Origin: a virus
Taxonomy: Duplodnaviria > Heunggongvirae > Uroviricota > Caudoviricetes
Direction: 5' to 3' (one strand)
Virus record (IMG/VR): IMGVR_UViG_3300008267_000033
Span: 1 to 64,000 of that record
Length of the DNA stretch: 64,000 bases
Shown: piece after piece, positions 25,539 to 37,080 of the stretch
Position numbering within the stretch: position 1 is the stretch's first letter
Layout of the letters: every line of letters begins with the position of its first letter
The notes under the pieces: model-generated
Seen by the model: only the letters and a program-made list of their open reading frames with translations
The model's database searches: none
What the model was told of the DNA's origin: nothing
Position numbers and translations under genes: made by a program

Positions 25539-26770
25539 TTTACGTTCCAGATTCAGTAGGTGAGGTATTATACAGCCCACTAGGGCATTACACAGTGGGC
25601 GATAATTGGTTCTACAGCAACAGAGATGCACTAGAGGCCAGTCACCGTACCGGCCAACCTGTGGCTTGGCATTACTATGATGATGTTTGGGCTACTGCAC
25701 ATGCCGCTGGACACTGGCGCAATCAAAATCTACGCGAACTATATTATGCCAGAGCAAGACAAATACGTGAGCAGTATGACTATGTGGCGGTGTTGTTCAG
25801 TGGCGGCTGGGACAGTCGCAACATAATTGAAAGTTTTGCCGCACAAGGACTGCGCATAGATGATATCATTGTGTTGACCACACCAGAACTAGAAAACACA
25901 ACAGACTTCAACAATCAAGACCCCACAAACTGGTACGGTGAGATCATGTATCATGCAGTGCCCTATGCTGAACGTTATGCTGCCGCACATCCGGGCACAG
26001 GAGTGATCAAGATAGAGTGGCTGGATCGTGTGGTAAATGCTTATCGTAATCCTGAGCAAGTGTTCAAGGACAGTCGCCCCAAGCCTGGTGTGTTCTTTGG
26101 CCGTTGGCTCAGCGTAGCAACAAATGCTCAGCTAGAAAAACGAATAGGCAACCGTCGTGCCACATTACTAACTGGGCTAGATAAGCCTTGTGTGATGCGC
26201 ACTGGAGACTCTTACCGAGGATTTTTTCCCGAAGGCCTAATGCGTGTGTACACCTATTGCACAAAAAGCAACGGGTTCCCAGACAATGTGATATGGGAAC
26301 CATTTTATTGGACGCCCAACATGCCTGAACTGGCCATACGTGGTTGGTATGAACTGATAGATTTGTGTCGTCGAGATGCTGTGGTAGCACATGCTCATGA
26401 TTCCACATTGAGCATGGAACAACGTGCCACAGCCAAAATGAGTCGCTATGTACAAGATGCCATGCGCAGACATTTGTACCCAGGGTTTGATGCCGGTGCC
26501 TGGCAAGCAGACAAACAAAACGACTATGGTTTTTTTATGCAATTCGAGTTGCCAATATTGAATTTGCTGGCGCAAAAACAAGTACCGGTTAGAGAAGTGT
26601 TGGGTGAAGTTTTGGCAGAAACTGCTCAACGCATTGGTGAGAGTTCTGTTGCCATCGGCGACCGAACCAACAGCGGTCTGGTGCCTTGGGTTGACATGCC
26701 TGGTGGGCATACTGTGTTAGATTACAAAACCTTTACCAGTTGTGTGATCAATTTAGATGGCCGGCCCTGA
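25481..26770 (+). CDS. PP-loop ATP pyrophosphatase (SGGxDS), asparagine-synthetase / QueC-like
   Basis: VAVLFSGGWDSRNI PP-loop motif; 3' end overlaps tRNA-Arg(TCG) by about 13 nt; true start may be a later Met (MIYVPDS). Confidence 0.4.
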   Translation: MGTWLSSRCGSCAGVLAVMIYVPDSVGEVLYSPLGHYTVGDNWFYSNRDALEASHRTGQPVAWHYYDDVWATAHAAGHWRNQNLRELYYARARQIREQYDYVAVLFSGGWDSRNIIESFAAQGLRIDDIIVLTTPELENTTDFNNQDPTNWYGEIMYHAVPYAERYAAAHPGTGVIKIEWLDRVVNAYRNPEQVFKDSRPKPGVFFGRWLSVATNAQLEKRIGNRRATLLTGLDKPCVMRTGDSYRGFFPEGLMRVYTYCTKSNGFPDNVIWEPFYWTPNMPELAIRGWYELIDLCRRDAVVAHAHDSTLSMEQRATAKMSRYVQDAMRRHLYPGFDAGAWQADKQNDYGFFMQFELPILNLLAQKQVPVREVLGEVLAETAQRIGESSVAIGDRTNSGLVPWVDMPGGHTVLDYKTFTSCVINLDGRP

Positions 26771-26832
26771 CGGAATCGAACCGCCACCGCTTGTTTCGAA
26801 GACAAGCATGATATCCATTTCACCAAGGGCCG
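26758..26832 (-). tRNA. tRNA-Arg (anticodon TCG)
   Basis: Minus-strand cloverleaf: T-arm GGCGGTTCGATTCCGTC, anticodon loop CTTCGAA, acceptor CGGCCCT/AGGGCCG, encoded CCA. Confidence 0.7.
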
Positions 26833-26850
26833 GTGTTTGCTAAGTAACGT

Positions 26851-27552
26851 ATGACTGAACTATTATATACCCTGATTGCAACACATATCACCATTGTTGC
26901 TGTCACACTATTCCTGCACAGAAGCCAAGCACACAGAAGCGTACAGTTTCACCCTGTAGTGTCACACTTCTTTAGATTTTGGCTGTGGCTCACAACTGGC
27001 ATGGTCACAAAACAATGGGTAGCGGTACATCGCAAGCATCACAGATTCAGCGACGAGCCGGGTGATCCACACTCACCGCATGTGTATGGAATCAAACAAG
27101 TTTTCTTCAAAGGAGCAGTGCTATATCATGCGGCATCAAAAGATAAAGTCATGGTTGATACATATGGTGTTGGTACTCCTGCTGATTGGATTGAGCACAA
27201 CCTATACAGTGCTCACTCCAGACTTGGCATTGGCATTCTCTTTTTGTTCAACATCATCGTCTTTGGTTGGGTTGGCGCCATAATCTGGGGCATACAAATG
27301 CTATGGATCCCATTATGGGCCGCTGGTGTTGTGAATGGCATTGGACACTGGTGGGGGTATCGCAATGGTCAAACAAAAGATCAAAGCCAAAACATTGTGC
27401 CTTGGGGCATTGTGATCGGCGGCGAAGAACTACACAACAATCATCACCTTAATCCTGCCGGTGCTCGACTCAGCAGACACTGGTGGGAGTTTGATATTGG
27501 ATGGATGTACATCCGATTGCTCAGTGCCTTGCAGTTGGCCACTGTGAAATAA
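26851..27552 (+). CDS. membrane fatty-acid desaturase / hydroxylase-like protein (His-box)
   Basis: Three His boxes HRKHH, HWWGYRNGQ, HNNHH with hydrophobic segments between. Confidence 0.5.
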   Translation: MTELLYTLIATHITIVAVTLFLHRSQAHRSVQFHPVVSHFFRFWLWLTTGMVTKQWVAVHRKHHRFSDEPGDPHSPHVYGIKQVFFKGAVLYHAASKDKVMVDTYGVGTPADWIEHNLYSAHSRLGIGILFLFNIIVFGWVGAIIWGIQMLWIPLWAAGVVNGIGHWWGYRNGQTKDQSQNIVPWGIVIGGEELHNNHHLNPAGARLSRHWWEFDIGWMYIRLLSALQLATVK

Positions 27553-27553
27553 C

Positions 27554-27627
27554 TGGTGCTCTCACCGAGAATTGAACTCAGGATTCAGTCTTACCAAGAC
27601 TGTGTTATACCACTTAACTACAAGAGC
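27554..27627 (-). tRNA. tRNA-Thr (anticodon GGT)
   Basis: Anticodon stem CAGTC/GACTG with loop TTGGTAA; T-loop TTCAATT; encoded CCA. Confidence 0.6.
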
Positions 27628-27633
27628 AAAAGA

Positions 27634-27707
27634 TGGAGCAGGATACCAGAATCGAACTGGTGACTGGACGTTGGCAACGTTCTATTTTCCCCCTAAACTA
27701 ATCCTGC
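27634..27707 (-). tRNA. tRNA-Gly (anticodon GCC, tentative)
   Basis: T-arm ACCAGTTCGATTCTGGT; acceptor GCAGGAT/ATCCTGC; anticodon loop TTGCCAA with one A-C mismatch in the stem; CCA. Confidence 0.55.
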
Positions 27708-27713
27708 GATATT

Positions 27714-28196
27714 TTAGGCCGCCTGCAGACCTTTGAATCTGTCGGCAGCATAACTTGCGGCAAATGCATGTGGTTTCACAAAAGGAATCACGTTGCATGT
27801 GCCTTTGATGTAGCCTATGGCTTGGCTTAGGACACAACTTGAACCGTGCATTTCGTCAGGGTTGATGTCCAAGTGAACTTCGACATCACGTCCTTCCAAC
27901 ACTTCCGCCAGTTTCAAGTACAACTCTGATACTTTATAAACTTCAGTCATGAGTCGCATGGCAGGTTTGGACACCTTTTGATCCCACACACGTTCACGAT
28001 GCACTTCACCAAAGATCTTGCAACCGTTGTTGCCGTTGATGTGAACCACAACAGCCAACACATAGTCAGCATGCCATGCACCGTCGATGCGCAGGCGTTC
28101 TGAATCACAGCCAAGATAGATCTTGGTTTCCGGAGACTGAGCCCGGATAAATTCTGCCACTTGTTCTAGATCAAGTTTTTTCATATGCACTTTCAA
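27714..28196 (-). CDS. DUF458/YkuK-like RNase H-fold protein (tentative), embedded in the tRNA array
   Basis: Family recalled from memory only (YLGCDS..LAVVVHI..LDINPD..KPHAFAASYAADR); weak. Confidence 0.3.
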   Translation of the reverse strand: MKVHMKKLDLEQVAEFIRAQSPETKIYLGCDSERLRIDGAWHADYVLAVVVHINGNNGCKIFGEVHRERVWDQKVSKPAMRLMTEVYKVSELYLKLAEVLEGRDVEVHLDINPDEMHGSSCVLSQAIGYIKGTCNVIPFVKPHAFAASYAADRFKGLQAA

Positions 28197-28210
28197 GATT
28201 ATTTATTGTT

Positions 28211-28290
28211 GACTGGTACCCCCACTCTGATTCGAACAGAGAACATATACTCCCTTTTGAGGAGAGTGACTTTACCAATTTGTCCATGGG
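28211..28290 (-). tRNA. tRNA, 80 nt, anticodon probably CAA (Leu-like but without a long variable arm)
   Basis: Acceptor GCCCCCA/TGGGGGT; T-arm CTCTGTTCGAATCAGAG; anticodon stem CTCTC/GGGAG with loop CTCAAAA; CCA. Confidence 0.45.
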
Positions 28291-28295
28291 GGCAG

Positions 28296-28372
28296 GTGTG
28301 GTGGATGTTAGTGGGATCGAACCACTGACCCACAGCATGTCGAGCTGTTGCACTACCGCTGTGCTAAACATC
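28296..28372 (-). tRNA. tRNA-Val (anticodon GAC, tentative)
   Basis: GGATGTTTAGCACAGCGGTAGTGC D-arm; anticodon stem ACAGC/GCTGT with loop TCGACAT (C33); GGTTCGATCC; CCA. Confidence 0.55.
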
Positions 28373-28377
28373 CTGAA

Positions 28378-28454
28378 TTGGTGCCCCAGAGGAGACTCGA
28401 ACTCCTAAAATACGGCTTCTAAGACCGGCATGTATACCAATTCCATCACCGGGG
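28378..28454 (-). tRNA. tRNA, anticodon probably TAG (Leu-like, type-I length)
   Basis: Acceptor GCCCCGG/CTGGGGC; T-arm GGAGTTCGAGTCTCC; anticodon loop CTTAGAA; CCA. Confidence 0.45.
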
Positions 28455-28747
28455 CATTAAATACAATATGATTCCATACGAACTACGAGATACCACACAA
28501 GTACTGTATGCTAAGTTCAGCTGTCAGCCCTACGTGCCTGCTAGTTACTGGACCACCTCTAGAGAATTTGTGTTGAATCCACTTTACCAACACACTGTGA
28601 CACAGTATGTGGCGGATCCTGTGTTTGAAAAACCTCAGCATGAATTTGTGCTGGATACCACATTCTTGGTGCCTCCTCCAGGTTCCGACCCTGGTTCTCC
28701 GGATTTTCAATCCGATGCTATGACCACATCAGCTAAAGAGGCAAATT

Positions 28748-28822
28748 TGGTACCTTGTGACGGGATCGAACCGCCGACATTCGCCGTGTAAAGGCGCTAC
28801 TCTACCGCTGAGTTAACAAGGC
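28748..28822 (-). tRNA. tRNA-Val (anticodon TAC)
   Basis: GCCTTGTTAACTCAGCGGTAGAGT; anticodon loop TTTACAC; GGTTCGATCC; CCA. Confidence 0.6.
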
Positions 28823-29012
28823 TTAGGAAATTTGTTGCAATGCGTCTCGACGCATCAGCAGTTGGCGTGTTTCGTTGACTCTATGCACAGAGATGTACTC
28901 GATGCCTTCGAATATTCTTACATGTCTGATATCATCGCAAATGAGTATTTCTCTTGTGATCTTGTTTTCAAATGTAATTTTGTTCATAATCATCTCCTGT
29001 TACAGTACTTAT

Positions 29013-29104
29013 TTGGCGGAAGACGGAGGAGTCGAACCCCATCCCTGTTAAGAGAACCTGGTTTTCAAGGCCAGTCGCAGGACCAACCCCGCTGCATCAT
29101 CTTC
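29013..29104 (-). tRNA. tRNA-Ser (anticodon TGA), type II
   Basis: 92 nt with long variable arm; anticodon stem CTGGC with loop CTTGAAA; T-arm GGGGTTCGACTCC; GCCA end. Confidence 0.65.
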
Positions 29105-29113
29105 CTGTATTTT

Positions 29114-29191
29114 TTGGAGCAACGGGTGAGATTTGAACTCACGGTTTTTGGGATTTGCAATCCCATGCGTTGGGCCACTCCGCCACCGTTG
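29114..29191 (-). tRNA. tRNA-Cys (anticodon GCA)
   Basis: Acceptor GCAACGG/CCGTTGC; anticodon stem TGGGA/TCCCA with loop TTGCAAA; GTTCAAATC; TCCA end. Confidence 0.65.
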
Positions 29192-29197
29192 CATTGC

Positions 29198-29271
29198 ATG
29201 GTCTCCGATGCAAGAATCGAACTTGCGCTCCTTGGTCCCAAACCAAGAGTGATACCATTTCACCAATCGGA
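29198..29271 (-). tRNA. tRNA-Pro (anticodon TGG)
   Basis: Anticodon stem CTTGG/CCAAG with loop TTTGGGA; T-arm GCAAGTTCGATTCTTGC; CCA. Confidence 0.65.
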
Positions 29272-29330
29272 GTAAAAAATTAGACCACAAGTGTAAGGGA
29301 CTTACGCCGGCGGGCTTTGCCTAGCGGGTA

Positions 29331-29557: not shown

Positions 29558-29631
29558 TGGAGCGGCGTGCGAGAATCGAACTCGCGACACGAACTTGGAA
29601 GGATCGGGTAATACCATTTTACGAACGCCGC
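29558..29631 (-). tRNA. tRNA-Gly (anticodon TCC)
   Basis: Acceptor GCGGCGT/ACGCCGC; anticodon loop CTTCCAA; T-arm GCGAGTTCGATTCTCGC; CCA. Confidence 0.6.
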
Positions 29632-29677
29632 TTATACATTAATTATACAACAAGCCACCGGGTTTGTCTATGTTGTT

Positions 29678-29753
29678 TGGCAGGGGAGATGAGATTCGAA
29701 CTCATGATCACGATTTCAAAGACCGTTGCCTTAGGCCACTAGGCGACACCCCA
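29678..29753 (-). tRNA. tRNA-Gln (anticodon TTG)
   Basis: Architecture parallels E. coli tRNA-Gln (TGGGGTG..GCCTAGTGGCCTAAGGC..); anticodon stem ACGGT/ATCGT with loop CTTTGAA; unpaired 1:72 as in bacterial tRNA-Gln; CCA. Confidence 0.55.
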
Positions 29754-29761
29754 ACAGGAAC

Positions 29762-29835
29762 TGGTAGCCAGTACAAGAATTGAACTTGTGATAATCGCTT
29801 ATCAAGCGACCGTTATACCATTTAACTAACCGGCT
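29762..29835 (-). tRNA. tRNA-Ile (anticodon GAT)
   Basis: Anticodon stem GTCGC/GCGAT with loop TTGATAA; T-loop TTCAATT; CCA. Confidence 0.65.
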
Positions 29836-29841: not shown

Positions 29842-29917
29842 TGGTGGTAATAGTTGGACTCGAACCAACGGTGGGTTGCGTATGAAGCAACTGCATTAGC
29901 CACTATGCTATATTACC
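29842..29917 (-). tRNA. tRNA-Met (anticodon CAT), elongator or Ile2 type
   Basis: Acceptor GGTAATA/TATTACC; anticodon stem GTTGC/GCAAC with loop TTCATAC; GGTTCGAGTCC; CCA. Confidence 0.65.
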
Positions 29918-29992
29918 ATATAGAAACACACTTGATATAGGAGATCACTCTCTCACGGATGAACCCGAGGTTGGTCAAATATGTTTTTATAT
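29918..29992. repeat. inter-tRNA spacer bounded by the leader/trailer inverted repeats ATATAGAAACACAC (29918-31) and ATATGTTTTTATAT (29979-92)
   Basis: The motifs abut the 5' end of tRNA-Met and the 3' CCA of tRNA-Lys and are mutually complementary. Confidence 0.55.
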
Positions 29993-30066
29993 GGTAGGAG
30001 CACAGGGAATCGAACCCTGATTAACTGGTTAAAAGCCAGCTACTTTGGCCGTTAAGTTATGCTCCC
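29992..30066 (-). tRNA. tRNA-Lys (anticodon TTT)
   Basis: Anticodon stem GCTGG/CCAGT with loop CTTTTAA; T-arm CAGGGTTCGATTCCCTG; CCA. Confidence 0.65.
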
Positions 30067-30071: not shown

Positions 30072-30147
30072 TGGTCCCTGCGGTCAGATTCGAACTGACG
30101 ACCAGCGGATTAAGAGTCCGTTGCGCTACCAACTGCGCCACACAGGG
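30072..30147 (-). tRNA. tRNA-Lys (anticodon CTT, tentative)
   Basis: D-arm GCGCAGTTGGTAGCGC; anticodon loop CTCTTAA; T-arm GTCAGTTCGAATCTGAC; CCA. Confidence 0.5.
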
Positions 30148-30251: not shown

Positions 30252-30280
30252 ATTATACAATAAACGGAATCTATCGTCAA
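30252..30280 (-). promoter_or_regulatory. sigma70 consensus promoter (TTGACG-17-TATAAT) reading into the tRNA block 30147 to 29558
   Basis: -35 revcomp of cgtcaa at 30275-80, -10 revcomp of attata at 30252-57; about 100-nt leader before the tRNA at 30147. Confidence 0.6.
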
Positions 30281-31157: not shown

Positions 31158-31232
31158 TGGCTCCTCAGACTGGGATCGAACCAATGACCGAACGGTTAAC
31201 AGCCGTTTGCTCTACCTCTGAGCTACTGAGGA
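31158..31232 (-). tRNA. tRNA-Asn (anticodon GTT)
   Basis: TCCTCAGTAGCTCAGAGGTAGAGC closely parallels E. coli tRNA-Asn; anticodon stem AACGG/CCGTT with loop CTGTTAA; GGTTCGATCC; CCA. Confidence 0.7.
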
Positions 31233-31240: not shown

Positions 31241-31330
31241 TGGCGGAACGTTAGGGAGTCGAACCCTATGAGCAAGTTTCCTCACCCTACGCATTAGCAG
31301 TGCGTTGCCTTACCGTCCGGCCCACGTTCC
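31241..31330 (-). tRNA. tRNA-Ser (anticodon GCT), type II
   Basis: 90 nt; acceptor GGAACGT/ACGTTCC; D-arm GGGCCGGACGGTAAGGC; anticodon loop CTGCTAA; long variable arm; GGGTTCGACTCCC; CCA. Confidence 0.65.
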
Positions 31331-31352: not shown

Positions 31353-31427
31353 TGGTGGAGGGTAAGGGAATCGAACCCTTAACTCATGCTTGCAAAGCAC
31401 ATGTGTTCCCGTTAGCACCAACCCCCC
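31353..31427 (-). tRNA. tRNA-Ala (anticodon TGC)
   Basis: Acceptor GGGGGGT/ACCCTCC with G3-U70 wobble (Ala identity element); anticodon loop TTTGCAA; AAGGGTTCGATTCCCTT; CCA. Confidence 0.65.
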
Positions 31428-31434: not shown

Positions 31435-31508
31435 TGGCATCCCGGGAGGGACTCGAACCCCCACAAACGGTTTTGGAGACCGCTATGCTGCCATTACACC
31501 ACCGAGAC
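31435..31508 (-). tRNA. tRNA-Trp (anticodon CCA)
   Basis: Anticodon stem GCGGT/ACCGT with loop CTCCAAA; GGGGGTTCGAGTCCCTC; CCA. Confidence 0.65.
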
Positions 31509-31745: not shown

Positions 31746-31977
31746 TTGTTAGATATACGAATATAGTCTATCAGAACCCCGGGTCTCCTGGAATACTGTT
31801 GAATGTGCCATTGGCCAACAGCCAGGTTGTTGCCTGGAAGGACATGGGTTTTGTCATTGAACAGAATTGTTGTTTCATCATAGTTCCTATTATAGTTTAT
31901 TTATTATTTGTTGTCAACCACAGAGCAAAATTATTTGCAGTGCTCTGCATTACAAAACTCATTCTATTGCTAGTATA

Positions 31978-32390: not shown

Positions 32391-32465
32391 TTGGTTGCAG
32401 AGGACGGATTCGCACCGCCGGTCCCCGGGTTATGAGCCCGATGAGATACTACTTCTCCACTCTGC
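32391..32465 (-). tRNA. initiator tRNA-fMet (anticodon CAT)
   Basis: CGCAGAGTGGAG...TCGGGCTCATAACCCGG...AACCA: C1xA72 mismatch, three G-C pairs closing the anticodon stem, close parallel to E. coli tRNAfMet; T-loop TGCGAAT. Confidence 0.7.
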
Positions 32466-32670
32466 GCTATGTTTATTTATATTGAATGAAGCACTGCCCG
32501 GTGTTTAAAGGTACGTATAGCAATATGCCGATACCATCCTTCCAGGAACATGACTTCGACTGTGACTAGCAGTCCACGCGGCTCTCGCCCGGTCAGCGGC
32601 TCTGGATCAATAAGTCCCTGGCAGTTGGGCCCATTGTCAATGAGTTTTTAACACGCTTCAATCAATATCG
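32466..32670 (-). ncRNA. 205-nt GC-rich non-coding segment between tRNA-His and tRNA-fMet; candidate small structured RNA
   Basis: CCAGG..CCTGG enclosing a GCGGCTCT direct repeat; no ORF. Confidence 0.25.
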
Positions 32671-32747
32671 TGGGGTGCATGATGGGATTCGAACCCACGC
32701 ATATCGGAATCACAATCCGAGGTCTTGACCGCTTGACGACACGCACC
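32671..32747 (-). tRNA. tRNA-His (anticodon GTG)
   Basis: Extra 5' G-1 opposite discriminator C73; anticodon stem TCGGA/TCCGA with loop TTGTGAT; GTGGGTTCGAATCCCAT; CCA. Confidence 0.7.
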
Positions 32748-32826
32748 ATATAGAAACACACTAGTCGGAAACGACTTAGAGACCTACTTGCCCACAGTCA
32801 CGAAGGCTTCTAATGTGTTTTTACAT
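32748..32826. repeat. inter-tRNA spacer bounded by ATATAGAAACACAC (32748-61) and AATGTGTTTTTACAT (32812-26); the spacer contains an AGTCG gaaa CGACT hairpin
   Basis: Abuts the tRNA-His 5' end and the tRNA-Arg(ACG) 3' end. Confidence 0.55.
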
Positions 32827-32902
32827 GGCGCGACCGGAGAGATTCGAACTCCCGACCCCTTGGTTCGTAGCCAAGTACTCTATCCAACTGAGCTACGGTC
32901 GC
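32826..32902 (-). tRNA. tRNA-Arg (anticodon ACG)
   Basis: GCGACCGTAGCTCAGTTGGATAGAGT; anticodon stem CTTGG/CCAAG with loop CTACGAA; GGGAGTTCGAATCTCTC; perfect 7-bp acceptor; CCA. Confidence 0.75.
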
Positions 32903-33518
32903 CGGTTGAATTTGAGAGCCTACGCCGCTTTTATCGTAGATTTATTCAGGACTTACCGGCCGCCTAGCCTGACCTCGAGCACGATGGATATCACTTGGGC
33001 TCCATCCAGCGTGGTCCCCGAGTGGACTACCGCAGTTGCCCGCGGCTGGGTCTCGAACCCACTTGCCTTCTGCTGTTTTGGTCCTTCGAAGAAACCTAGA
33101 CAGCGTGACTTCACTTGCTGACACTCTCAAAACTGGATTTGTTTAGTAGGCTACCCCTCATGTTCTCTTACTCTTGGGTAGCGTGACCATGTCGTATATC
33201 ACCGAAGAACAATCCGCAATATACTAGGCTCCCTCGCTAAAGGCATTACTAAACAAAAACTTGGCGGTCCTAGGGGGTAACGATCCCCACTCTTACGGCG
33301 TGACAAGCCGTCGTGCGTCCATGAACACTTTAGGACCAAAAATCTTGTTGTTACATTAAAAATGCGGCTTGCGCCTCCCACTGCTAACTACTGCTTCCCA
33401 ATTTATCGTCCATCGGCACCCGTGGTAGGGCTTGCGATGCGCATCGGCCTGACGTTCTGGCGTCAGTGATCCTTGGGATAGGACTGCTGGGCCTTGACCT
33501 GCCCAGCATCAGGTTGTT
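32903..33518 (-). ncRNA. about 0.6 kb GC-rich non-coding island inside the tRNA array; candidate structured RNA(s), class unknown
   Basis: No credible ORF; many GC hairpins (TGCTGGGC..GCCCAGCA, CTGACG..CGTCAG, GATGCGCATC) and a T-arm-like GTGGGTTCGAGACCCAG at 33043-62; same strand as the tRNAs. Confidence 0.3.
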
Positions 33519-33604
33519 TGGTGGAGACGGATGGATTCGAACCACCGCGCTTTTTACGGGCCAGATTTACAGTCTGGTGCAATCAACCACTCTGCCACGT
33601 CTCC
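33519..33604 (-). tRNA. tRNA-Tyr (anticodon GTA), type II
   Basis: 86 nt; acceptor GGAGACG/CGTCTCC; anticodon stem CCAGA/TCTGG with loop CTGTAAA; long variable arm; GGTTCGAATCC; CCA. Confidence 0.7.
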
Positions 33605-33614
33605 AAAACGTACT

Positions 33615-33716
33615 ATATAGAAACACACTATACAACAGGTTTAGGTCTGCTTCTGTATCCTGTCACGGCGTAGTATGAAGTTATCTCTAGACCTCAGCCG
33701 TAATGTGTTTTTATAT
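33615..33716. repeat. inter-tRNA spacer bounded by ATATAGAAACACAC (33615-28) and AATGTGTTTTTATAT (33702-16); the spacer contains a GGTCT..AGACC hairpin
   Basis: Abuts the tRNA-Tyr 5' end and the tRNA-Glu 3' end. Confidence 0.55.
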
Positions 33717-33790
33717 GGTACACGATACGAGAATCGAACTCGTCTTTCCGCCTTGAAAGGGCAGCGTCCTAACCGATAGACGAATCGTGC
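33716..33790 (-). tRNA. tRNA-Glu (anticodon TTC)
   Basis: D-arm GTCTATCGGTTAGGAC; anticodon stem CTGCC/GGCGG with loop CTTTCAA; T-arm ACGAGTTCGATTCTCGT; CCA. Confidence 0.6.
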
Positions 33791-33868
33791 ATGCTATACG
33801 AAAACACACTTCGGATACTGTACTAAACAGAAACTATCCAACACGGGCTATCCCGCTGAAGCATGTTT
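33791..33868. repeat. spacer bounded by GCTATACGAAAACACAC (33791-809) and the degenerate GCATGTTTACATATAG (33852-67)
   Basis: Follows the tRNA-Glu 5' end; the partner side is followed by a CCCTGT aactag ACAGGG hairpin instead of a tRNA. Confidence 0.4.
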
Positions 33869-33991
33869 ACATATAGTACCCTGTAACTAGACAGGGACTA
33901 CATGACAATCAAAATTTTAACGAACTTTTCAACTAGTCTCGATCGACTGTGCTGTTTTAAACTGTTTGGTCAACACCATAGAAAAACACAC

Positions 33992-34060
33992 TCTCAGGAA
34001 TCGAACCTGCTACCCTGTAGTACGGGGCTGTATCCAACGGACCATCGCGCATGGTCTGAG
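33992..34060 (-). pseudogene. tRNA-like remnant (T-arm only), flanked by the array's leader/trailer motifs in swapped order
   Basis: GCAGGTTCGATTCCTGA T-arm-like hairpin plus a GACCAT..ATGGTC hairpin; no intact D or anticodon arm; the 14-nt motifs at 33976-33991 and 34061-34074 can pair like an acceptor stem. Confidence 0.25.
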
Positions 34061-34168
34061 TGTGTTTATCTATGTTGTCGCGGAGGCCGAGTCTACAAAC
34101 TCGCTTCGAGTCCCTTGGTTCCAACCCTTTTTGCATCTCTGCGTGGGTTCTTACATTCGAGGACCGCC

Positions 34169-34196
34169 TTGCTTTCTAACTAGTCTCTAGTATAAC
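34169..34196 (+). promoter_or_regulatory. sigma70-like promoter, copy 1 of a 32-bp direct repeat (TTGCTT-16-TATAAC)
   Basis: TTGCTTTCTAACTAGTCTCTAGTATAACATCT at 34169-34200. Confidence 0.4.
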
Positions 34197-34267
34197 ATCT
34201 TGTGTTATTCTGGTCAACTTGTTTTGCAAAATCCCTTTGCTTTGTAGGGTCTTTGCAAACTTTGCTG

Positions 34268-34295
34268 TTGCTTTCTGACTAGTCTCTAATATAAC
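34268..34295 (+). promoter_or_regulatory. sigma70-like promoter, copy 2 of the direct repeat (TTGCTT-16-TATAAC)
   Basis: TTGCTTTCTGACTAGTCTCTAATATAACATCT at 34268-34299, 99 bp after copy 1. Confidence 0.4.
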
Positions 34296-34325
34296 ATCTC
34301 TGCCATTATTGGTCTAGCCGAAAAA

Positions 34326-34353
34326 GAAAAACCCGCCTAGATAGCGGGTTTTT
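34326..34353. terminator. bidirectional rho-independent terminator
   Basis: AAAAACCCGC ctagata GCGGGTTTTTG; ends the minus-strand small gene and the putative plus-strand sRNA. Confidence 0.6.
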
Positions 34354-34359
34354 GCTTGA

Positions 34360-34377
34360 GTAGTACTTTTGTATTAG
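34360..34377. promoter_or_regulatory. palindrome variant GTAGTACTTTTGTATTAG upstream of a TG-extended -10 (GTGTATAAT at 34416-24) inside a CCTCAC..GTGAGG hairpin
   Basis: Motif follows the terminator at 34326-53; possible plus-strand promoter, antisense to the small gene 34533..34724. Confidence 0.3.
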
Positions 34378-34532
34378 GTACCACTGCTCCCGCTGTTAGT
34401 ATAGGCCAGCGCCTCACGTGTATAATCATGTGAGGGTATCTCAAAGGACAGTTGGGTGTATTGCTTGTTCATAGTTTATTATATATGACAGTGAGTCGAA
34501 AGTCAATGATTTGTTAGATGTCTTTTGCCAAT

Positions 34533-34724
34533 TTATGTTCTTCCGGGTGGAGGTTTTGTAGTACCTAGTTGTCGCTCAAACGAACCAGGTCCTGCCAGTT
34601 CGGGTGGTAGTGGTGGCGGAACATAACGTTCCTTCACAGGCTTCTTGCCAAAAATTGATTCGTGTCTGGTGGCCAGTTCTTGTTGACTGACCACTGATGG
34701 ACGGGGTCTTGTGCCTTTGCTCAT
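34533..34724 (-). CDS. small Pro-rich basic protein (63 aa)
   Basis: GAGGAGA SD 5 nt upstream of the ATG. Confidence 0.35.
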   Translation of the reverse strand: MSKGTRPRPSVVSQQELATRHESIFGKKPVKERYVPPPLPPELAGPGSFERQLGTTKPPPGRT

Positions 34725-34780
34725 GGTGTCTCCTCAAATGTGTAGTATATATTAGTGTTGCCAGTGGGTCAACACTTTTA

Positions 34781-35365
34781 TCAAATCACTTGGGCAATAC
34801 GAGCCAAGATGATTTCAACCACTTGATTGCTGATCACAACTTCATAGTGGTTCAGCGGAAGTTCTACCAATTCAAAATCTGTGCGATATTGTTGGCTTTC
34901 TATTGTGACCACACCGTCATTGGGTTCTTGTATCCAGGGACTGGCTCCGCGTGTGGTCACAACCTGTGTCCAACATGGTGGTGCAGGCAACTTTTTGGCC
35001 GCAGCCATGGGATGACTTGCAGGACCAATGTCTTTCATCAGCCGGTTAAACGGCAGGAAGTAACGTGCATAATCTGCTTGTTTGCTGCCACCATAAGGTG
35101 TGCTCAAGCTCACACCGCCCACAGTGGTCGCACTGTAGTGGTTGGCCAGGTGCAGGGCATAGATACCGCCCAGGCTGTGACTGACGAAGAACAGTCGATC
35201 CTGATCATCCAGTTGGCCCTTCATTTCTGCCAGGTTGTGATCAAATCCTGCTTCGCTGTTGTATTCCAGGGCTAGGTCGGGCTCTTCTGTGTGATCCCGC
35301 ACAAACTGTCTGATGTGTGTGAAACTTTCTGCTGTGGCTGATGCCCCGTGTATGTAAACTATCAT
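34781..35365 (-). CDS. alpha/beta hydrolase (lipase/esterase-like)
   Basis: GxSxG nucleophile elbow VSHSLGG; 194 aa. Confidence 0.5.
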   Translation of the reverse strand: MIVYIHGASATAESFTHIRQFVRDHTEEPDLALEYNSEAGFDHNLAEMKGQLDDQDRLFFVSHSLGGIYALHLANHYSATTVGGVSLSTPYGGSKQADYARYFLPFNRLMKDIGPASHPMAAAKKLPAPPCWTQVVTTRGASPWIQEPNDGVVTIESQQYRTDFELVELPLNHYEVVISNQVVEIILARIAQVI

Positions 35366-35377
35366 TTGAATATTTAT

Positions 35378-35405
35378 TGTAGAGAAACCCGCCGAAGCGG
35401 GTTCT
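35378..35405. other. GC hairpin with GNRA-like loop (CCCGC cgaa GCGGG), possible terminator or attenuator upstream of the hydrolase gene
   Basis: AGAGAAACCCGCCGAAGCGGGTTCTGAGTTTCTGTT. Confidence 0.3.
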
Positions 35406-35701
35406 GAGTTTCTGTTACGAGGTATGTCTTACCCTAGGCAGTGTTTAGGCTGCCAAAGCGAACTGTTCGTCGTTTGCATTTACGGTTTTTGCTTGATTAA
35501 CGGTCATCGCCTACCGTGCTGTCCACTCTGTTACTTGTTGCCCTGTCGAAACTATGCACCCCCATCAAAAGAATTATTGACTAACATTCCCCCCATACTT
35601 CATTTCTGGTGCGGCTAATGCAAAAACTCTTTTGGTGGAGGTGGGGGGATTTGCACCCCCGTCCAGAACACTTTTCTCTCGGCTTCATACAACAATAACT
35701 A

Positions 35702-36316
35702 CTATTTAATCAAATGTGGCCATAAGTTGCCATATTCATCCAATGGTTCAGGTTTAAACCTGATGCTTGCGGCTACTCTCAATTGGGTGTGATGAGTTTC
35801 TGGGCGATGTAAAATATTGACATTGATCCAATGAGGAATATTAGAATCACATCGTCCAATTTCTACTGCTGTACGAGGATCCACAACTCTAGCTATTTCA
35901 ACAATAGAAGTACCAATAACATAGTCTGGTAAACTTTGATCTTTGATCTTGCCATCATACCACACAGTGTAGGTGTCTTCACAGTTGATCAGTGGAATGT
36001 TCAGTGCAATATCCACACCTACATCCACATGCGGAGGAAATTCACGAGTGCTTTCAACAGAGATAAACGTTATTACAAAAAAATTGTTGTATATACCCAG
36101 TCGTTGGAACTCTTGCATCAGAGTAGTACAAGTGTTGTGCATGAGTACTTTGTAGCTGATTTCCACAGCGGTGCTGGTATATGGAACCAGTGTGTCTTTC
36201 TTGGTTTGAATAAACAACTTCAATAATTCTTTTTGTATTGCAGGTAATAATTCTGGATTTAGGCTGGGCTCATGATACAGCCAATCAGGAGTGGTATTTC
36301 GATATTTGTAAACCAT
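35702..36316 (-). CDS. cupin / 2OG-oxygenase-like protein, paralog 2
   Basis: PPHVDVG (HxD) plus ETHH His motif; start set to ATG 36314-36316 (MVYKYRN), 7 nt after the stop of the upstream gene; the long N-terminal extension in the ORF track overlaps that gene. Confidence 0.35.
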   Translation of the reverse strand: MVYKYRNTTPDWLYHEPSLNPELLPAIQKELLKLFIQTKKDTLVPYTSTAVEISYKVLMHNTCTTLMQEFQRLGIYNNFFVITFISVESTREFPPHVDVGVDIALNIPLINCEDTYTVWYDGKIKDQSLPDYVIGTSIVEIARVVDPRTAVEIGRCDSNIPHWINVNILHRPETHHTQLRVAASIRFKPEPLDEYGNLWPHLIK

Positions 36317-36323
36317 ATGGTAT

Positions 36324-36818
36324 TTATACGCTGTTGGGCTCGTCGGCCACACGCCATGACAACAGTGCCAAATCTGCGGCAATTTCGTCGGTGACTGTGC
36401 CTTCACTGACGAAATTTCGTGAGCCGTCAGTGTCTCCGTTGCCCAGGCCATCACCAATGCCTGAACAGTACCAGTCCATGTAGTCGCCACCCTTGTCTTG
36501 CAGGTCAGCCACAATACCACCTGCACTACGCCAGGTGCATGACCAATAGACGTCTTTGAGTATGAGCCAAACATCTTGTTTTTGGAAACTGTTGTTGCAC
36601 AAGGCAGCATACAGGTTCTGTGCATAGGTGTCACTGCCACGCACTTTGCTCAAGAACCAGTCGGCCTGGCTCATGTCGTATTCCATGTTGTTGATCCGGT
36701 ACTCAGGAGTCTGCCTGCGTTCAGCTTCCAACTTGACCCACTTGCCACGGATGTCATCAAAGAAGTCATCATCAGTGCCTTCGCTTGCATGTTGTGGTTC
36801 TATTGTGATGTCGTTCAT
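36324..36818 (-). CDS. hypothetical acidic protein
   Basis: Start set to ATG 36816-36818 (MNDITIEP), preceded by AAAGGAA; avoids overlap with tRNA-Leu(TAA). Confidence 0.35.
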   Translation of the reverse strand: MNDITIEPQHASEGTDDDFFDDIRGKWVKLEAERRQTPEYRINNMEYDMSQADWFLSKVRGSDTYAQNLYAALCNNSFQKQDVWLILKDVYWSCTWRSAGGIVADLQDKGGDYMDWYCSGIGDGLGNGDTDGSRNFVSEGTVTDEIAADLALLSWRVADEPNSV

Positions 36819-36829
36819 GTCAGTTCCTT

Positions 36830-36913
36830 TGGTACGAGTAACCGGAGTCGAACCGGTACGCATTCAGCGGCGGATTTTAAGTCCGCTGGGTCTACCTATT
36901 CCCCCATACTCGC
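36830..36913 (-). tRNA. tRNA-Leu (anticodon TAA), type II
   Basis: 84 nt; anticodon stem GCGGA/TCCGC with loop CTTAAAA; long variable arm CGCTGAATGCG; ACCGGTTCGACTCCGGT; CCA. Confidence 0.65.
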
Positions 36914-36927
36914 ATGTTTGTATTTAC

Positions 36928-37002
36928 TGGTCCGGCGTACAGGAATCGAACCCATATTCGCGGAGTAGAAATCCGCTGTATTATCCATTATACTAACGCC
37001 AG
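36928..37002 (-). tRNA. tRNA-Arg (anticodon TCT)
   Basis: D-arm GTATAATGGATAATAC; anticodon stem GCGGA/TCCGC with loop TTTCTAC; CCA. Confidence 0.6.
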
Positions 37003-37005
37003 TGT

Positions 37006-37080
37006 TGGTGCCCACAGAGGGAATTGAACCCCCACTCAAGCGATTATGAGTCGCCTGCTTTACCATTAAGCTATGTGGGC
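37006..37080 (-). tRNA. tRNA-Met/Ile2 (anticodon CAT), third CAT tRNA in the array
   Basis: Acceptor GCCCACA/TGTGGGC; anticodon stem GGCGA/TCGCT with loop CTCATAA; GGGGGTTCAATTCCCTC; CCA. Confidence 0.65.

What the first reader, a model, noticed from the sequence alone, without database searches (positions are those of the whole stretch)
26758..37080. 29-gene tRNA array covering nearly all amino acids, with initiator, His (G-1) and Gln-type identity features
About 29 tRNA genes, all on the minus strand, are packed into roughly 10 kb. They cover 18 amino acids and include three CAT tRNAs. One of these is a textbook bacterial initiator: C1xA72 mismatch and a GGG/CCC anticodon stem. The array also carries a tRNA-His with a genome-encoded G-1 and a tRNA-Ala with G3-U70. 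The Gln tRNA has an unpaired 1:72 position like bacterial tRNA-Gln. Asp and Phe were not found. Two Leu-like tRNAs (CAA, TAG) lack the long variable arm. A complement this large is characteristic of jumbo or T4-like phages that uncouple from host codon usage.
Basis: seen in the sequence. Interest (0 to 1): 0.55.

Follow-up and report, generated by a model that had tools for sequence, protein, structure and literature searches.

The report
Jumbo-phage tRNA array with two-piece tmRNA
This is a real block of 31 transfer-RNA genes plus a ribosome-rescue RNA (tmRNA) in an uncultivated giant bacteriophage; such blocks are already known, but this one holds several oddly shaped tRNAs that are nevertheless conserved across related phages.

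Summary
The array is real and larger than reported. A further Ser(UGA) tRNA at 29014-29105 has an 8/4 cloverleaf. The initiator, His G-1, Ala G3-U70, Gln 1:72 mismatch and the two short-armed Leu tRNAs are all confirmed.

Every tRNA carries an encoded CCA and bacterial-type identity elements. Five near-consensus sigma-70 promoters lie on the array strand, against 0.17 expected by chance.

The same array, built around a DUF458 RNase-H-like gene, recurs in at least 80 IMG/VR viral loci, some on contigs of 220-365 kb. Compensatory changes there support the odd Leu, Asp and Ser tRNAs as functional.

This is a new member of a known kind: huge-phage tRNA plus tmRNA modules. The likely role is a near-complete phage-owned decoding set that reads about 91-96% of the phage's codons. 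The host is unknown, so the codon-usage argument remains untested.

The novelty is modest: covarying tRNA-elbow variants, including A18:G55 in both initiator tRNA and tmRNA, and the DUF458-tRNA linkage.

The parts
37089..37117 (-). sigma-70-like promoter (TTGACA-17-TACAAT with extended -10 TG); the -10 ends 9 nt before the first tRNA
37006..37080 (-). tRNA with CAU anticodon; probable tRNA-Ile2 (lysidine type, reads AUA)
   Evidence: (73.9 bits). It has A73, C4-G69, U12-A23, C29-G41 and A37A38, and the same D and T loops as the phage Ile(GAU). The Ile identity rules are from memory. BLAST annotation was inconclusive.
36928..37002 (-). tRNA-Arg(UCU)
36830..36913 (-). tRNA-Leu(UAA), normal class II with a 13-nt variable arm
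35381..35746 (-). two-piece (permuted) tmRNA gene. Acceptor piece ends in CCA at 35633; intervening segment 35564-35632; coding piece starts at 35563; tag ORF 35445-35477 (ANDEQFALAA plus stop); 3' hairpin about 35385-35405.
34478..34506 (-). sigma-70-like promoter (11 of 12), followed by a 32-codon ORF and the terminator at 34327-34353
33716..33790 (-). tRNA-Glu(UUC)
33519..33604 (-). tRNA-Tyr(GUA), bacterial type with a long variable arm
33262..33337 (-). tRNA-Asp(GUC), atypical: A8/U14 and A54/U58 in place of U8-A14 and T54-A58
   Evidence: 32.8 bits. Nine homologues are 100% paired and all 5 anticodon-stem pairs covary.
32826..32902 (-). tRNA-Arg(ACG)
32671..32747 (-). tRNA-His(GUG) with encoded G-1 (32747) opposite C73
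32392..32466 (-). bacterial-type initiator tRNA (C1xA72, three G-C pairs in the anticodon stem, A11:U24) with A18 and G55 in place of G18 and U55
31889..31917 (-). sigma-70 consensus promoter (12 of 12)
31435..31508 (-). tRNA-Trp(CCA)
31353..31427 (-). tRNA-Ala(UGC) with G3-U70
31241..31330 (-). tRNA-Ser(GCU), class II
31158..31232 (-). tRNA-Asn(GUU); 55 nt are 98% identical to the tRNA-Asn of Limnohabitans phage DC31
30878..30951 (-). tRNA-Thr(UGU)
30252..30280 (-). sigma-70-like promoter (11 of 12), 105 nt upstream of Lys(CUU)
30072..30147 (-). tRNA-Lys(CUU)
29992..30066 (-). tRNA-Lys(UUU)
29842..29917 (-). tRNA with CAU anticodon; probable elongator tRNA-Met (lacks the Ile identity pairs)
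   Evidence: no match among isolate phages
29762..29835 (-). tRNA-Ile(GAU)
29678..29753 (-). tRNA-Gln(UUG) with U1xU72 and G73
29642..29670 (-). sigma-70-like promoter (11 of 12); the -10 ends 11 nt before Gly(UCC)
29558..29631 (-). tRNA-Gly(UCC)
29199..29272 (-). tRNA-Pro(UGG) with C1-G72 and A73
29115..29192 (-). tRNA-Cys(GCA) with U73
29014..29105 (-). tRNA-Ser(UGA) with an 8/4 cloverleaf: 8-bp acceptor stem, 4-bp T stem, long variable arm, G73, CCA
   Evidence: Twelve homologues are 99.3% paired, and 7 pairs carry compensatory changes, including the 8th acceptor pair.
28748..28822 (-). tRNA-Val(UAC)
28667..28742 (-). tRNA-Phe(GAA), atypical T loop GTCGGAA (G54, G58)
   Evidence: (50.7 bits)
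28379..28455 (-). tRNA-Leu(UAG), class-I-like (5-nt variable loop); keeps the Leu-type D arm and A73
   Evidence: Sixteen homologues are 99.4% paired and 12 of 20 pairs carry compensatory changes.
28299..28373 (-). tRNA-Val(GAC)
28214..28293 (-). tRNA-Leu(CAA) with a shortened (8-nt) variable region and A73
27714..28196 (-). DUF458 / PF04308 RNase-H-like ORF embedded in the array (probable ATG start at 28184). It is the one protein gene shared by all 80 related loci; that set was retrieved by searching with this gene.
27634..27707 (-). tRNA-Gly(GCC)
27554..27627 (-). tRNA-Thr(GGU)
26758..26832 (-). tRNA-Arg(UCG)

Best explanation
This is the translation-RNA module of an uncultivated jumbo bacteriophage, probably from fresh water. 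It comprises 31 co-oriented tRNA genes and one two-piece tmRNA gene. The tRNAs include an initiator, an elongator Met, a probable lysidine-type Ile2, and at least one decoder for every amino acid.

Shown here:
- The genes, their cloverleaf folds and their anticodons.
- Encoded CCA ends on all 31 tRNAs.
- Discriminator bases and key identity pairs that match the bacterial rules.
- Strong sigma-70-type promoters on the same strand.
- Conservation with compensatory changes across related phages.

Inferred mechanism:
1. Host RNA polymerase transcribes several polycistronic precursors early in infection.
2. Host RNase P and 3' exonucleases cut out the tRNAs. Thirteen junctions are 9 nt or shorter, and no CCA-adding step is needed.
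3. Host aminoacyl-tRNA synthetases charge them.
4. The phage thereby owns a near-complete decoding set for its AT-leaning codons. Its translation no longer depends on the host tRNA pool, whether that pool is mismatched in codon usage, decaying after host shut-off, or cut by tRNA-targeting defences.
5. The tmRNA is alanylated through G3-U70 and A73 and works with host SmpB. It frees stalled ribosomes and tags the products with ANDEQFALAA for host proteases.
For: - Gene calls.
- All 30 ARAGORN tRNAs and the 8/4 Ser tRNA end in an encoded CCA, as do 1440 of 1451 tRNAs in the related loci.
- Twenty-nine of the 30 ARAGORN-called discriminator bases fit the E. coli rules; the exception is Glu, which has A73. 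Also present are G3-U70 (Ala), G-1/C73 (His), C1-G72/A73 (Pro), U73 (Cys, Gly) and a long-armed Tyr.
- Five promoters match 11 or more of 12 positions on the minus strand and none on the plus strand. Two hundred shuffles gave 0.17 +/- 0.42 and none reached 5. Two promoters end 9 and 11 nt before a tRNA 5' end.
- Codon coverage is 89.6% by plain wobble. The codons left unread are GCC, GCU, AUA, CCU, CCC, CUU, CUC, UCU and UCC. AUA makes up 25% of Ile codons and GC3 is 0.43.
- The array is conserved around DUF458 in 80 IMG/VR loci, on contigs up to 365 kb, and all 1421 tRNAs there lie on the gene's strand. L003 is syntenic with the window.
- Purifying selection on the odd tRNAs is shown by compensatory changes.
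- The tmRNA matches the full length of RF01850, has an intact tRNA-like domain, resume codon and stop, and 18 of the 80 loci carry a permuted tmRNA call (14 distinct sequences), most with the tag ANDEQFALAA or ANDSQFALAA.
- Precedents: huge phages with up to 67 tRNAs plus tmRNA and SmpB (PMC7162821), and two-piece tmRNAs in aquatic phages (PMC9004378).
Against: - There are no expression, processing or charging data.
- The host is unknown, so neither the codon-mismatch idea nor the defence idea is tested.
- No SmpB, synthetase or CCA-adding enzyme was found in the 64-kb window. The rest of the genome was not available.
- Four tRNAs and the tmRNA deviate at normally invariant elbow positions, which might lower their activity.
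- Four C-ending codons (4.4% of codons) still need host tRNAs or superwobble.
- No near-consensus promoter was found directly upstream of the tmRNA.
Confidence: 0.85

Rival explanations
1. Pure codon compensation. The tRNAs exist mainly to supply decoders for A/U-ending codons that a GC-richer host reads poorly.
For: - The window's ORFs have GC3 of 0.43 and prefer A/U-ending codons.
- The array opens with what looks like the classic rare-codon trio: Ile2(AUA), Arg(AGA) and Leu(UUA).
- Bacteria sharing the tmRNA tag are mostly Rhodocyclaceae, Limnobacter and Pasteurellaceae. That Rhodocyclaceae are GC-rich is my recollection, not a tool result.
Against: - The set also includes decoders for C- and G-ending codons that need no supplement: GCC, GGU, GAC, CUU, CAA and ACG anticodons.
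- It includes an initiator and a tmRNA, which codon bias does not explain.
- The host and its codon usage are unknown.
Confidence: 0.3
2. Counter-defence set. The tRNAs replace host tRNAs destroyed by tRNA-targeting immunity or toxins, and their unusual shapes make them poor substrates for those nucleases.
For: - Published cases show phage tRNAs evading PrrC-, PARIS-, retron- and Schlafen-type tRNases (PMC10264068, PMC11555353, PMC13056530).
- Conserved structural deviations occur here: class-I-like Leu, 8/4 Ser, A8:U14 with A54:U58 in Asp, G54/G58 in Phe, and A18:G55 in the initiator and tmRNA. All keep paired stems.
Against: - The known escape mutations sit in anticodon loops, not in the elbow or the variable arm.
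- No host tRNAs were available for comparison.
- No nuclease that targets the elbow is known for any candidate host. The Burkholderia CdiA T-loop nuclease is recalled from memory only.
- Most of the 31 tRNAs are canonical.
Confidence: 0.25
3. The locus is a bacterial chromosomal tRNA island, or a cellular contig misfiled as viral, and not a phage module.
For: - All features are bacterial in type.
- One relative (L085) is filed in a Haliscomenobacter MAG.
Against: - There are 544 relatives in IMG/VR, with contigs up to 365 kb.
- The window's genes give PHROG hits, and the window has no rRNA or other core cellular translation genes.
- L085 is a 23-kb contig with the phage gene order Met-Arg(UCU)-tmRNA-Glu-Asp-Trp, and it carries a permuted tmRNA, a form that (from memory) is not expected in Bacteroidota.
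- DUF458 also lies within tRNA arrays in isolated phages.
Confidence: 0.03
4. The array is largely decaying or non-functional: pseudo-tRNAs, recombination or integration targets.
For: - Asp falls below Rfam's filters in window-scale searches, and Ser(UGA) is sub-threshold.
- The ORFs between the tRNAs are poorly conserved.
Against: - Stems are 99-100% paired with many compensatory substitutions across relatives.
- CCA ends are universal.
- Identity elements are intact.
- Strong promoters lie on the array strand.
Confidence: 0.03

Closest known systems
tRNA plus tmRNA complements of huge/jumbo phages (Al-Shayeb et al. 2020, PMC7162821; from memory also mycobacteriophage Bxz1-type, Vibrio phage KVP40 and Xanthomonas phage XacN1)
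   Same: Dozens of clustered tRNAs, tmRNA present, and a large genome rich in auxiliary genes. The tRNAs are presumed to be charged by host enzymes.
   Different: This lineage has no cultured relative: the only megablast hit to isolate phages is 55 nt. No SmpB or synthetase lies in the window. The tmRNA is two-piece.
Two-piece (permuted) tmRNAs of aquatic phages such as Methylophilales phage Melnitz and pelagimyophages (PMC9004378)
   Same: A phage-encoded permuted ssrA with a complete tag, in an aquatic setting. Fifty-three of 133 unique phage tmRNAs were reported as permuted.
   Different: This one is the betaproteobacterial subtype (RF01850, 138.6 bits), not the alpha type. No glutamine riboswitch was detected. 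It sits inside a 31-tRNA array. Its tRNA-like domain has A18:G55 in place of G18:U55.
(8/4) tRNA-Ser / allo-tRNA in phage tRNA clusters (Mukai et al. 2017, PMC5389517)
   Same: An 8-bp acceptor stem, 4-bp T stem, long variable arm, G73 and a serine anticodon, located in a phage tRNA cluster.
   Different: It comes from a different phage lineage. No accompanying 8/4 tRNA-His is present: His here is 7/5 with G-1. The D arm is a 5-bp stem preceded by a 5-nt linker; I did not compare this with the published consensus.
Bacterial class II tRNA-Leu
   Same: A73, a 3-bp D stem with the GAAUUGGUA-type D loop, and leucine anticodons. LeuRS identity rests on A73 plus tertiary structure; deleting the variable arm mainly lowers affinity (PMC2377443).
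   Different: Two of the three Leu tRNAs lack the long variable arm (5 and 8 nt). Both long and short forms occur in the phage family on the same acceptor and D-arm backbone. Short Leu tRNAs are also annotated in Stenotrophomonas phage DLP_6 and Roseobacter phage DSS3P8.

Membership tests
Phage tRNA gene array (jumbo/huge phage type) | Many tRNA genes clustered in one orientation | tested here: met
   31 tRNAs in 10.3 kb, all on the minus strand
Phage tRNA gene array (jumbo/huge phage type) | The genome is viral and large | tested here: met
   Relatives lie on IMG/VR contigs up to 365 kb. L003 (225 kb) is syntenic with the window, and the window's genes give PHROG hits. The window's own contig length was not obtained; notes only that one contig carrying the gene falls in the 50-200 kb class.
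Phage tRNA gene array (jumbo/huge phage type) | The tRNAs are expressed and aminoacylated during infection | not testable with these tools
   Only indirect support: promoters, identity elements and covariation
Two-piece tmRNA, betaproteobacterial type (Rfam RF01850 / RF04321) | Covariance-model score above gathering over the full model | tested here: met
   138.6 bits (gathering 84) over model positions 1-331; 142.7 bits (gathering 47) over 1-213
Two-piece tmRNA, betaproteobacterial type (Rfam RF01850 / RF04321) | Permuted gene order: the 3' acceptor half with CCA lies upstream of the 5' half and the tag ORF | tested here: met
   ARAGORN calls it 'tmRNA*'. The CCA is at 35633, the coding piece starts at 35563, and the tag ORF is 35445-35477
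Two-piece tmRNA, betaproteobacterial type (Rfam RF01850 / RF04321) | Alanine identity (G3-U70, A73) and a tag ending in ALAA plus stop | tested here: met
   GGGGGTG / CACCTCC-A-CCA gives G3-U70 and A73; the tag is ANDEQFALAA*
Two-piece tmRNA, betaproteobacterial type (Rfam RF01850 / RF04321) | An SmpB partner is available | tested here: inconclusive
   No SmpB among the window's ORFs. The rest of the phage genome and the host were not available.
(8/4) tRNA-Ser / allo-tRNA | 8-bp acceptor stem plus 4-bp T stem | tested here: met
   The 8th pair covaries, G-C to A-U, in 2 of 12 sequences. The 7/5 alternative gives a U:C or U:U mismatch at 49:65.
(8/4) tRNA-Ser / allo-tRNA | Long variable arm and G73 (SerRS identity) | tested here: met
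   A 17-nt variable region with a 4-bp covarying stem; G73 followed by CCA
(8/4) tRNA-Ser / allo-tRNA | Serylation and use in translation | not testable with these tools
   Not addressed here
Bacterial initiator tRNA | C1xA72 mismatch, three consecutive G-C pairs (29-31:39-41) and A11:U24 | tested here: met
   Read directly from 32392-32466. The same features are kept in 25 unique homologues.
Bacterial initiator tRNA | Canonical T loop (T54-U55-C56) | tested here: not met
   The T loop is TGCGAAT (G55), with A18 in the D loop. This covaries in 6 of 6 G55 sequences against 0 of 19 U55 sequences. It is a family variant, not a disqualification.
Class II tRNA-Leu | Long variable arm (more than 10 nt) | tested here: not met
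   Leu(UAG) has 5 nt and Leu(CAA) has 8 nt. Leu(UAA) has 13 nt and meets the criterion.
Class II tRNA-Leu | A73 and the Leu-type D arm and tertiary nucleotides | tested here: met
   A73, U8, A14, A15 and G18G19 in the GAATTGGTA loop, with a 3-bp D stem

The most novel reading that the evidence does not exclude
The phage lineage may be remodelling the tRNA 'elbow' and overall tRNA shape under selection.

Observations that prompt this reading:
- Normally invariant tertiary pairs are swapped in a covarying way. G18:U55 becomes A18:G55 in both the initiator tRNA and the tmRNA. G19:C56 becomes A19:U56 in relatives. U54:A58 becomes A54:U58 and U8:A14 becomes A8:U14 in Asp.
- tRNA-Leu has lost its long arm.
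- tRNA-Ser uses an 8/4 fold.

One reading is that these RNAs escape a host factor, or a phage-made one, that recognises canonical elbows or class II arms: a nuclease, toxin or modification enzyme.

Separately, the DUF458 RNase-H-like gene is co-transcribed inside tRNA arrays in several unrelated phage groups, and in a Rhizobium phage it sits beside CCA-adding, Thg1-like, RNA-ligase and PNK genes. It may be a dedicated tRNA-processing or host-tRNA nuclease.
Probability: 0.12. Interest if true: 0.7.

Novelty: new member of a known kind. Interest (0 to 1): 0.38.

Why it matters
Large phage tRNA sets with tmRNA are already documented, so the array does not change the picture. Its value is as a clean, well-populated natural dataset: hundreds of related loci (544 DUF458 hits in IMG/VR, of which 80 were examined here).

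- A virus keeps an almost complete decoder set with bacterial identity rules.
- Positions usually called invariant in tRNA vary in a compensated way.
- tRNA-Leu tolerates loss of its long arm.
- An uncharacterised nuclease family (DUF458) gains a testable link to tRNA biology.

These are leads for tRNA structure and identity work and for the debate over why phages carry tRNAs. They are not a new class of system.

Tried and rejected
- **Megablast of the array against 50,697 isolate phages.** The only match was 55 nt of tRNA-Asn, to Limnohabitans phage DC31. There is no cultured relative, and this is too little to name a host.
- **Host inference from the tmRNA tag.** A genome-contig scan for ANDEQFALAA found 41 loci in Rhodocyclaceae, Limnobacter and Pasteurellaceae, 40 of which ARAGORN called, and all but one of those have one-piece tmRNAs. 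The single permuted hit (L085, filed as a 'Haliscomenobacter' MAG) has the phage gene order and is most likely a mis-binned phage contig. The host stays unknown.
- **Which betaproteobacteria carry two-piece tmRNA.** I could not retrieve this from the library.
- **Telling Ile2 from Met by BLAST annotation.** The tRNA at 37006-37080 hits phage genes labelled only 'tRNA-Met', and the one at 29842-29917 hits nothing. The assignment therefore rests on identity elements recalled from memory.
- **DUF458 structure.** No PDB sequence match was found. A single-sequence AlphaFold model was unusable (pLDDT 42), and I ran no fold search on it.
- **Relaxed ARAGORN runs (-ps85, -ps80).** These add only scattered low-quality calls, many on the wrong strand or inside ORFs. 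I rejected all except Ser(UGA).
- **A possible small RNA between the promoter at 34506 and the terminator at 34327.** It reads as a 32-codon ORF instead.
- **A remnant of the CUA (amber) tRNA that L003 carries after Asp.** L003's amber-tRNA segment has no aligned counterpart in the window; I did not scan the intervening window bases for a remnant.

Full report
**Observation.** ARAGORN finds 30 tRNA genes and one permuted tmRNA, all on the minus strand, between 26758 and 37080. Rfam at gathering thresholds confirms 29 of the tRNAs at 46.6-73.9 bits (gathering 29). It also confirms the tmRNA: RF01850 beta_tmRNA scores 138.6 bits over the full model, and RF04321 tmRNA_permuted scores 142.7 bits. 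The tRNA that Rfam misses at window scale, Asp at 33262-33337, scores 32.8 bits when searched alone.

A 31st gene lies at 29014-29105. It surfaces as a sub-threshold tRNA-Sec hit (36.6 bits, gathering 47, E 2e-4) and as Ser(UGA) when ARAGORN is relaxed slightly.

The anticodon set is:
- Arg UCG, ACG, UCU
- Thr GGU, UGU
- Gly GCC, UCC
- Leu CAA, UAG, UAA
- Val GAC, UAC
- Ser GCU, UGA
- Lys UUU, CUU
- Three CAU tRNAs
- One each for Phe, Cys, Pro, Gln, Ile(GAU), Asn, Ala, Trp, His, Asp, Tyr and Glu

All 20 amino acids are covered.

Confirmed directly from the sequences:
- The initiator at 32392-32466 has C1xA72, G29-31:C39-41 and A11:U24.
- His has C73, and a G is encoded one base upstream (G-1 at 32747).
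- Ala has G3-U70.
- Gln has U1xU72 and G73.
- Leu(UAG) has a 5-nt variable loop and Leu(CAA) an 8-nt variable region.

Wrong:
- Asp and Phe are present. Both have non-canonical T loops (ATCGTTA and GTCGGAA), which is the likely reason they were overlooked.
- The count is 31, not 29.
- The tmRNA was missed.

**Identity and maturation signals.** All 30 ARAGORN tRNAs end in a genome-encoded CCA, and so does Ser(UGA). Discriminator bases match the E. coli identity rules (rules from memory) for 29 of the 30 ARAGORN tRNAs:
- A73: Leu, Val, Phe, Ile, Met, Lys, Thr, Ala, Tyr, Pro
- G73: Gln, Asn, Ser, Asp, Trp, and two of the three Arg tRNAs (Arg(UCU) has A73)
- U73: Gly, Cys
- C73: His

Glu has A73 and is the exception. 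Tyr has the bacterial long arm and Pro has C1-G72.

Of the two non-initiator CAU tRNAs, the one at 37006-37080 carries C4-G69, U12-A23, C29-G41, A37A38 and A73. It also shares its D and T loops with the phage Ile(GAU). I recall this as the IleRS identity set (Nureki et al. 1994, from memory). The tRNA at 29842-29917 has none of these pairs. I therefore read the first as tRNA-Ile2 (lysidine type, decoding AUA) and the second as elongator Met. BLAST annotation could not settle the question.

Thirteen tRNA-tRNA junctions are 9 nt or shorter (coordinates).

**Transcription.** Five sigma-70-type promoters matching at least 11 of 12 positions lie on the minus strand of 26.0-39.5 kb. None lie on the plus strand. 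Two hundred dinucleotide-preserving shuffles gave 0.17 +/- 0.42, and none reached five. One ends 9 nt before the first tRNA (37080) and another ends 11 nt before Gly(UCC) (29631). No near-consensus promoter precedes the tmRNA, so it may be read through from the promoter at 37117. That last point is inference.

**The tmRNA.**
- The acceptor piece ends ...CACCTCCACCA at 35633.
- A 69-nt intervening segment follows.
- The coding piece starts GGGGGTG at 35563. This gives G3-U70 and A73, the alanine identity.
- The tag frame GCA...TAA at 35445-35477 encodes ANDEQFALAA.
- A terminal hairpin follows.

Bacteria with exactly this tag are Rhodocyclaceae, Limnobacter and Pasteurellaceae, and all of those have one-piece genes. 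The single permuted hit is a 23-kb contig in a Haliscomenobacter MAG with the order Met-Arg(UCU)-tmRNA-Glu-Asp-Trp. That is the phage arrangement, so the contig is most likely mis-binned.

Phage two-piece tmRNAs are known: 53 of 133 unique phage tmRNAs were reported as permuted, mostly from aquatic phages (PMC9004378). No SmpB is encoded in the window.

**Genomic setting.** The only megablast match among 50,697 isolate phages is 55 nt of tRNA-Asn, in Limnohabitans phage DC31.

The 156-160-aa DUF458 / PF04308 RNase-H-like ORF inside the array (27714-28196) has 544 relatives in IMG/VR. The best 80 loci share 76-93% amino-acid identity, and several lie on contigs of 220-365 kb. Of 30 of these loci scanned with ARAGORN, each carries 19-38 tRNAs. 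Across all 80 loci, all 1421 tRNAs are on the DUF458 strand, and the nearest upstream tRNA is a median of 30 nt away. Eighteen of the 80 loci carry a permuted tmRNA call (14 distinct sequences), most with the tag ANDEQFALAA or ANDSQFALAA. L003, from a 225-kb contig, is syntenic with window 19.5-39.3 kb.

The other ORFs inside the array are poorly conserved. The rest of the window encodes:
- ThyX
- GTP cyclohydrolase I, QueD and a QueE-like protein
- MoxR ATPase with a VWA protein
- three radical-SAM proteins
- sugar-nucleotide enzymes
- a 5'-3' exonuclease
- an RNA polymerase omega-like protein

No structural genes lie in the window. The exact DUF458 protein occurs in JGI samples 3300022407 and 3300017778. 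A freshwater origin is my inference.

**Codon usage.** Sixty-eight window ORFs (17,006 codons) have GC3 of 0.43. The phage tRNAs read 89.6% of codons by simple wobble. This rises to about 91% if the Ile2 assignment is right; AUA is 25% of Ile codons. It rises to about 96% if the U34 tRNAs of the Ala, Pro, Leu and Ser boxes also read U-ending codons. Only GCC, CCC, CUC and UCC (4.4%) then remain uncovered (the arithmetic is mine). Relatives carry the missing GGC, GGG and GAG anticodons. The set is therefore close to a full decoder, not a selective supplement.

**The unusual tRNAs are under selection.**
- **Leu(UAG).** Sixteen unique 77-nt homologues fit a class-I cloverleaf with 99.4% of cells paired, and 12 of 20 pairs show changes on both sides. 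Long-armed (83-85 nt) and short forms share the same acceptor and D-arm backbone. The short forms keep A73, U8, A14, A15 and the Leu-type D loop. Bacterial LeuRS identity rests on A73 and the tertiary core, and removing the arm mainly lowers affinity (PMC2377443).
- **Asp.** Nine unique homologues are 100% paired, and all five anticodon-stem pairs covary. They keep G34U35C36, C38, G73, G10 and G2-C71, and always have A8, U14, A54 and U58.
- **Ser(UGA).** Fourteen unique homologues occur in at least 25 loci. On an alignment of 12 of them the 8/4 fold is 99.3% paired, and seven pairs covary, including the eighth acceptor pair. This matches the (8/4) tRNA-Ser already described in phage tRNA clusters (PMC5389517).

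**Elbow covariation (a side result).**
- Among 899 unique family tRNAs, 47 have A54...U58, 32 have A8:U14, and 15 have both.
- All 11 T loops with U56 pair with a D loop reading G18-A19. This is G19:C56 changed to A19:U56.
- Among 25 unique initiators, the 6 with G55 all have A18, and the 19 with U55 all have G18. The exact probability is 1 in 177,100, not corrected for phylogeny. The switch appears on at least two different sequence backbones.
- The same A18:G55 switch appears in the tmRNA tRNA-like domain. All ten distinct sequences with TGCRAAT have ...TAG...TTCGAC, while the two with TTCGA have TGG. The Rfam consensus for bacterial beta two-piece tmRNA is U55 with GG.

In this window the initiator and the tmRNA carry A18:G55, Asp carries A8:U14 and A54:U58, and Phe carries G54/G58. 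I know of no published account of this, and I have no tested explanation.

**DUF458.** The family is a predicted RNase-H1-like endonuclease of unknown function (PMC3985635). The papers that mention it do not link it to tRNA. Beyond this lineage, I checked nine isolate phages:

| Phage | DUF458 context |
|---|---|
| Stenotrophomonas phage DLP_6 | inside a tRNA array |
| Roseobacter phage DSS3P8 | inside a tRNA array |
| Xanthomonas phage BUDD | 28 tRNAs around it |
| Synechococcus phage BUCT-ZZ01 | beside a permuted tmRNA |
| Pseudomonas phage Astolliot | near three tRNAs |
| Rhizobium phage RHph_I1_18 | next to CCA-adding enzyme, Thg1-like, RNA ligase and PNK genes |
| Vibrio phage nt-1 | no tRNA link |
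| Vibrio phage phiKT1024 | no tRNA link |
| Xanthomonas phage X1 | listed but not examined |

Six of the eight phages examined show a tRNA or tRNA-repair context. No PDB sequence match exists, and a single-sequence structure model was unusable.

**Verdict.** This is a genuine, dense and conserved tRNA plus tmRNA module of an uncultivated jumbo phage, and a new member of a known kind (PMC7162821). The likely function is a phage-owned, near-complete decoding set with ribosome rescue. It would be transcribed from strong host-type promoters and matured and charged by host enzymes. Whether codon mismatch, host shut-off or tRNA-targeting defence is the main selective driver cannot be decided without the host.

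Noticed in passing
window 22211-22606 (-): A 131-aa ORF with an RNA polymerase Rpb6/omega domain (PF01192, E 3.4e-8, 33.8 bits against a cutoff of 26). This would be a phage-encoded RpoZ-like protein, which seems unusual to me.
   Followed up: no
window 27714-28196 (-); loci L001-L080, L081, L083, L125-L127, L129: The DUF458/PF04308 RNase-H-like gene is embedded in tRNA arrays in this lineage: all 1421 tRNAs in 80 loci lie on its strand, and the nearest upstream tRNA is a median of 30 nt away. It is also embedded in or near tRNA arrays in several unrelated isolate phages. In Rhizobium phage RHph_I1_18 it sits beside CCA-adding, Thg1-like, RNA-ligase and PNK genes. No literature link to tRNA was found.
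   Followed up: partly
window 32392-32466 and 35381-35746; family loci: Covarying swaps of 'invariant' tRNA elbow contacts. A18:G55 occurs in the initiator tRNA and in the tmRNA tRNA-like domain. A19:U56 occurs in Cys, Arg and Pro tRNAs of relatives. A54:U58 and A8:U14 occur in Asp and other tRNAs.
   Followed up: partly
L014, L033, L034, L040, L048, L058, L073; L081 (Stenotrophomonas phage DLP_6): Relatives and DLP_6 carry 90-92-nt tRNAs with a UAU anticodon and an insertion or long arm; ARAGORN calls them 'Ile(tat)'. L003, L058 and Synechococcus phage BUCT-ZZ01 carry CUA (amber-reading) tRNAs. Neither kind was found in the window. The UAU ones recall the allo-tRNA(UAU) group of Mukai et al..
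   Followed up: no
window 34320-34506 (-): A near-consensus promoter (34506-34478) is followed by a 32-codon ORF (MNKQYTQLSFEIPSHDYTREALAYTNSGSSGT) with almost no leader, then a strong intrinsic terminator (34353-34327). The unit is conserved in L003, L053, L057 and L058.
   Followed up: partly
window 54156-54689 (-), 57962-58705 (-): QueD/PTPS and GTP cyclohydrolase I, plus a QueE-like radical-SAM PHROG hit whose ORF I did not map. This is a 7-deazaguanine precursor pathway. Whether it serves DNA modification or queuosine for the phage's own GUN-anticodon tRNAs is open.
   Followed up: no
window 15085-16410 (-), 18836-19927 (-); 17007-18149, 37104-39158, 51307-53313 (-): A MoxR-type AAA ATPase paired with a DUF2201 VWA/metallopeptidase protein, and three radical-SAM ORFs, two of them with B12-binding domains.
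   Followed up: no
L085 (NZ_JBBAKG010000090.1, filed as a 'Haliscomenobacter sp.' MAG): A 23-kb contig with the order Met-Arg(UCU)-permuted tmRNA-Glu-Asp-Trp, 67% identical to the window's tmRNA. It is probably a phage contig binned into a bacterial MAG.
   Followed up: partly
L070, L071: Two relatives have permuted tmRNAs with an unusually long predicted tag, ANVNKTVTVSGKN[IL]KFSARSAKEALAV.
   Followed up: no
window 56223-56921, 12943-13737, 23220-23657, 54771-55220, 9776-10456 (all -): Auxiliary genes: Bax-inhibitor-1/YccA-like membrane protein, SPFH/Band 7, rubrerythrin, HIT hydrolase and ThyX. Three DUF6071 paralogues lie at 48135-48857, 59423-60163 and 61746-62411.
   Followed up: no
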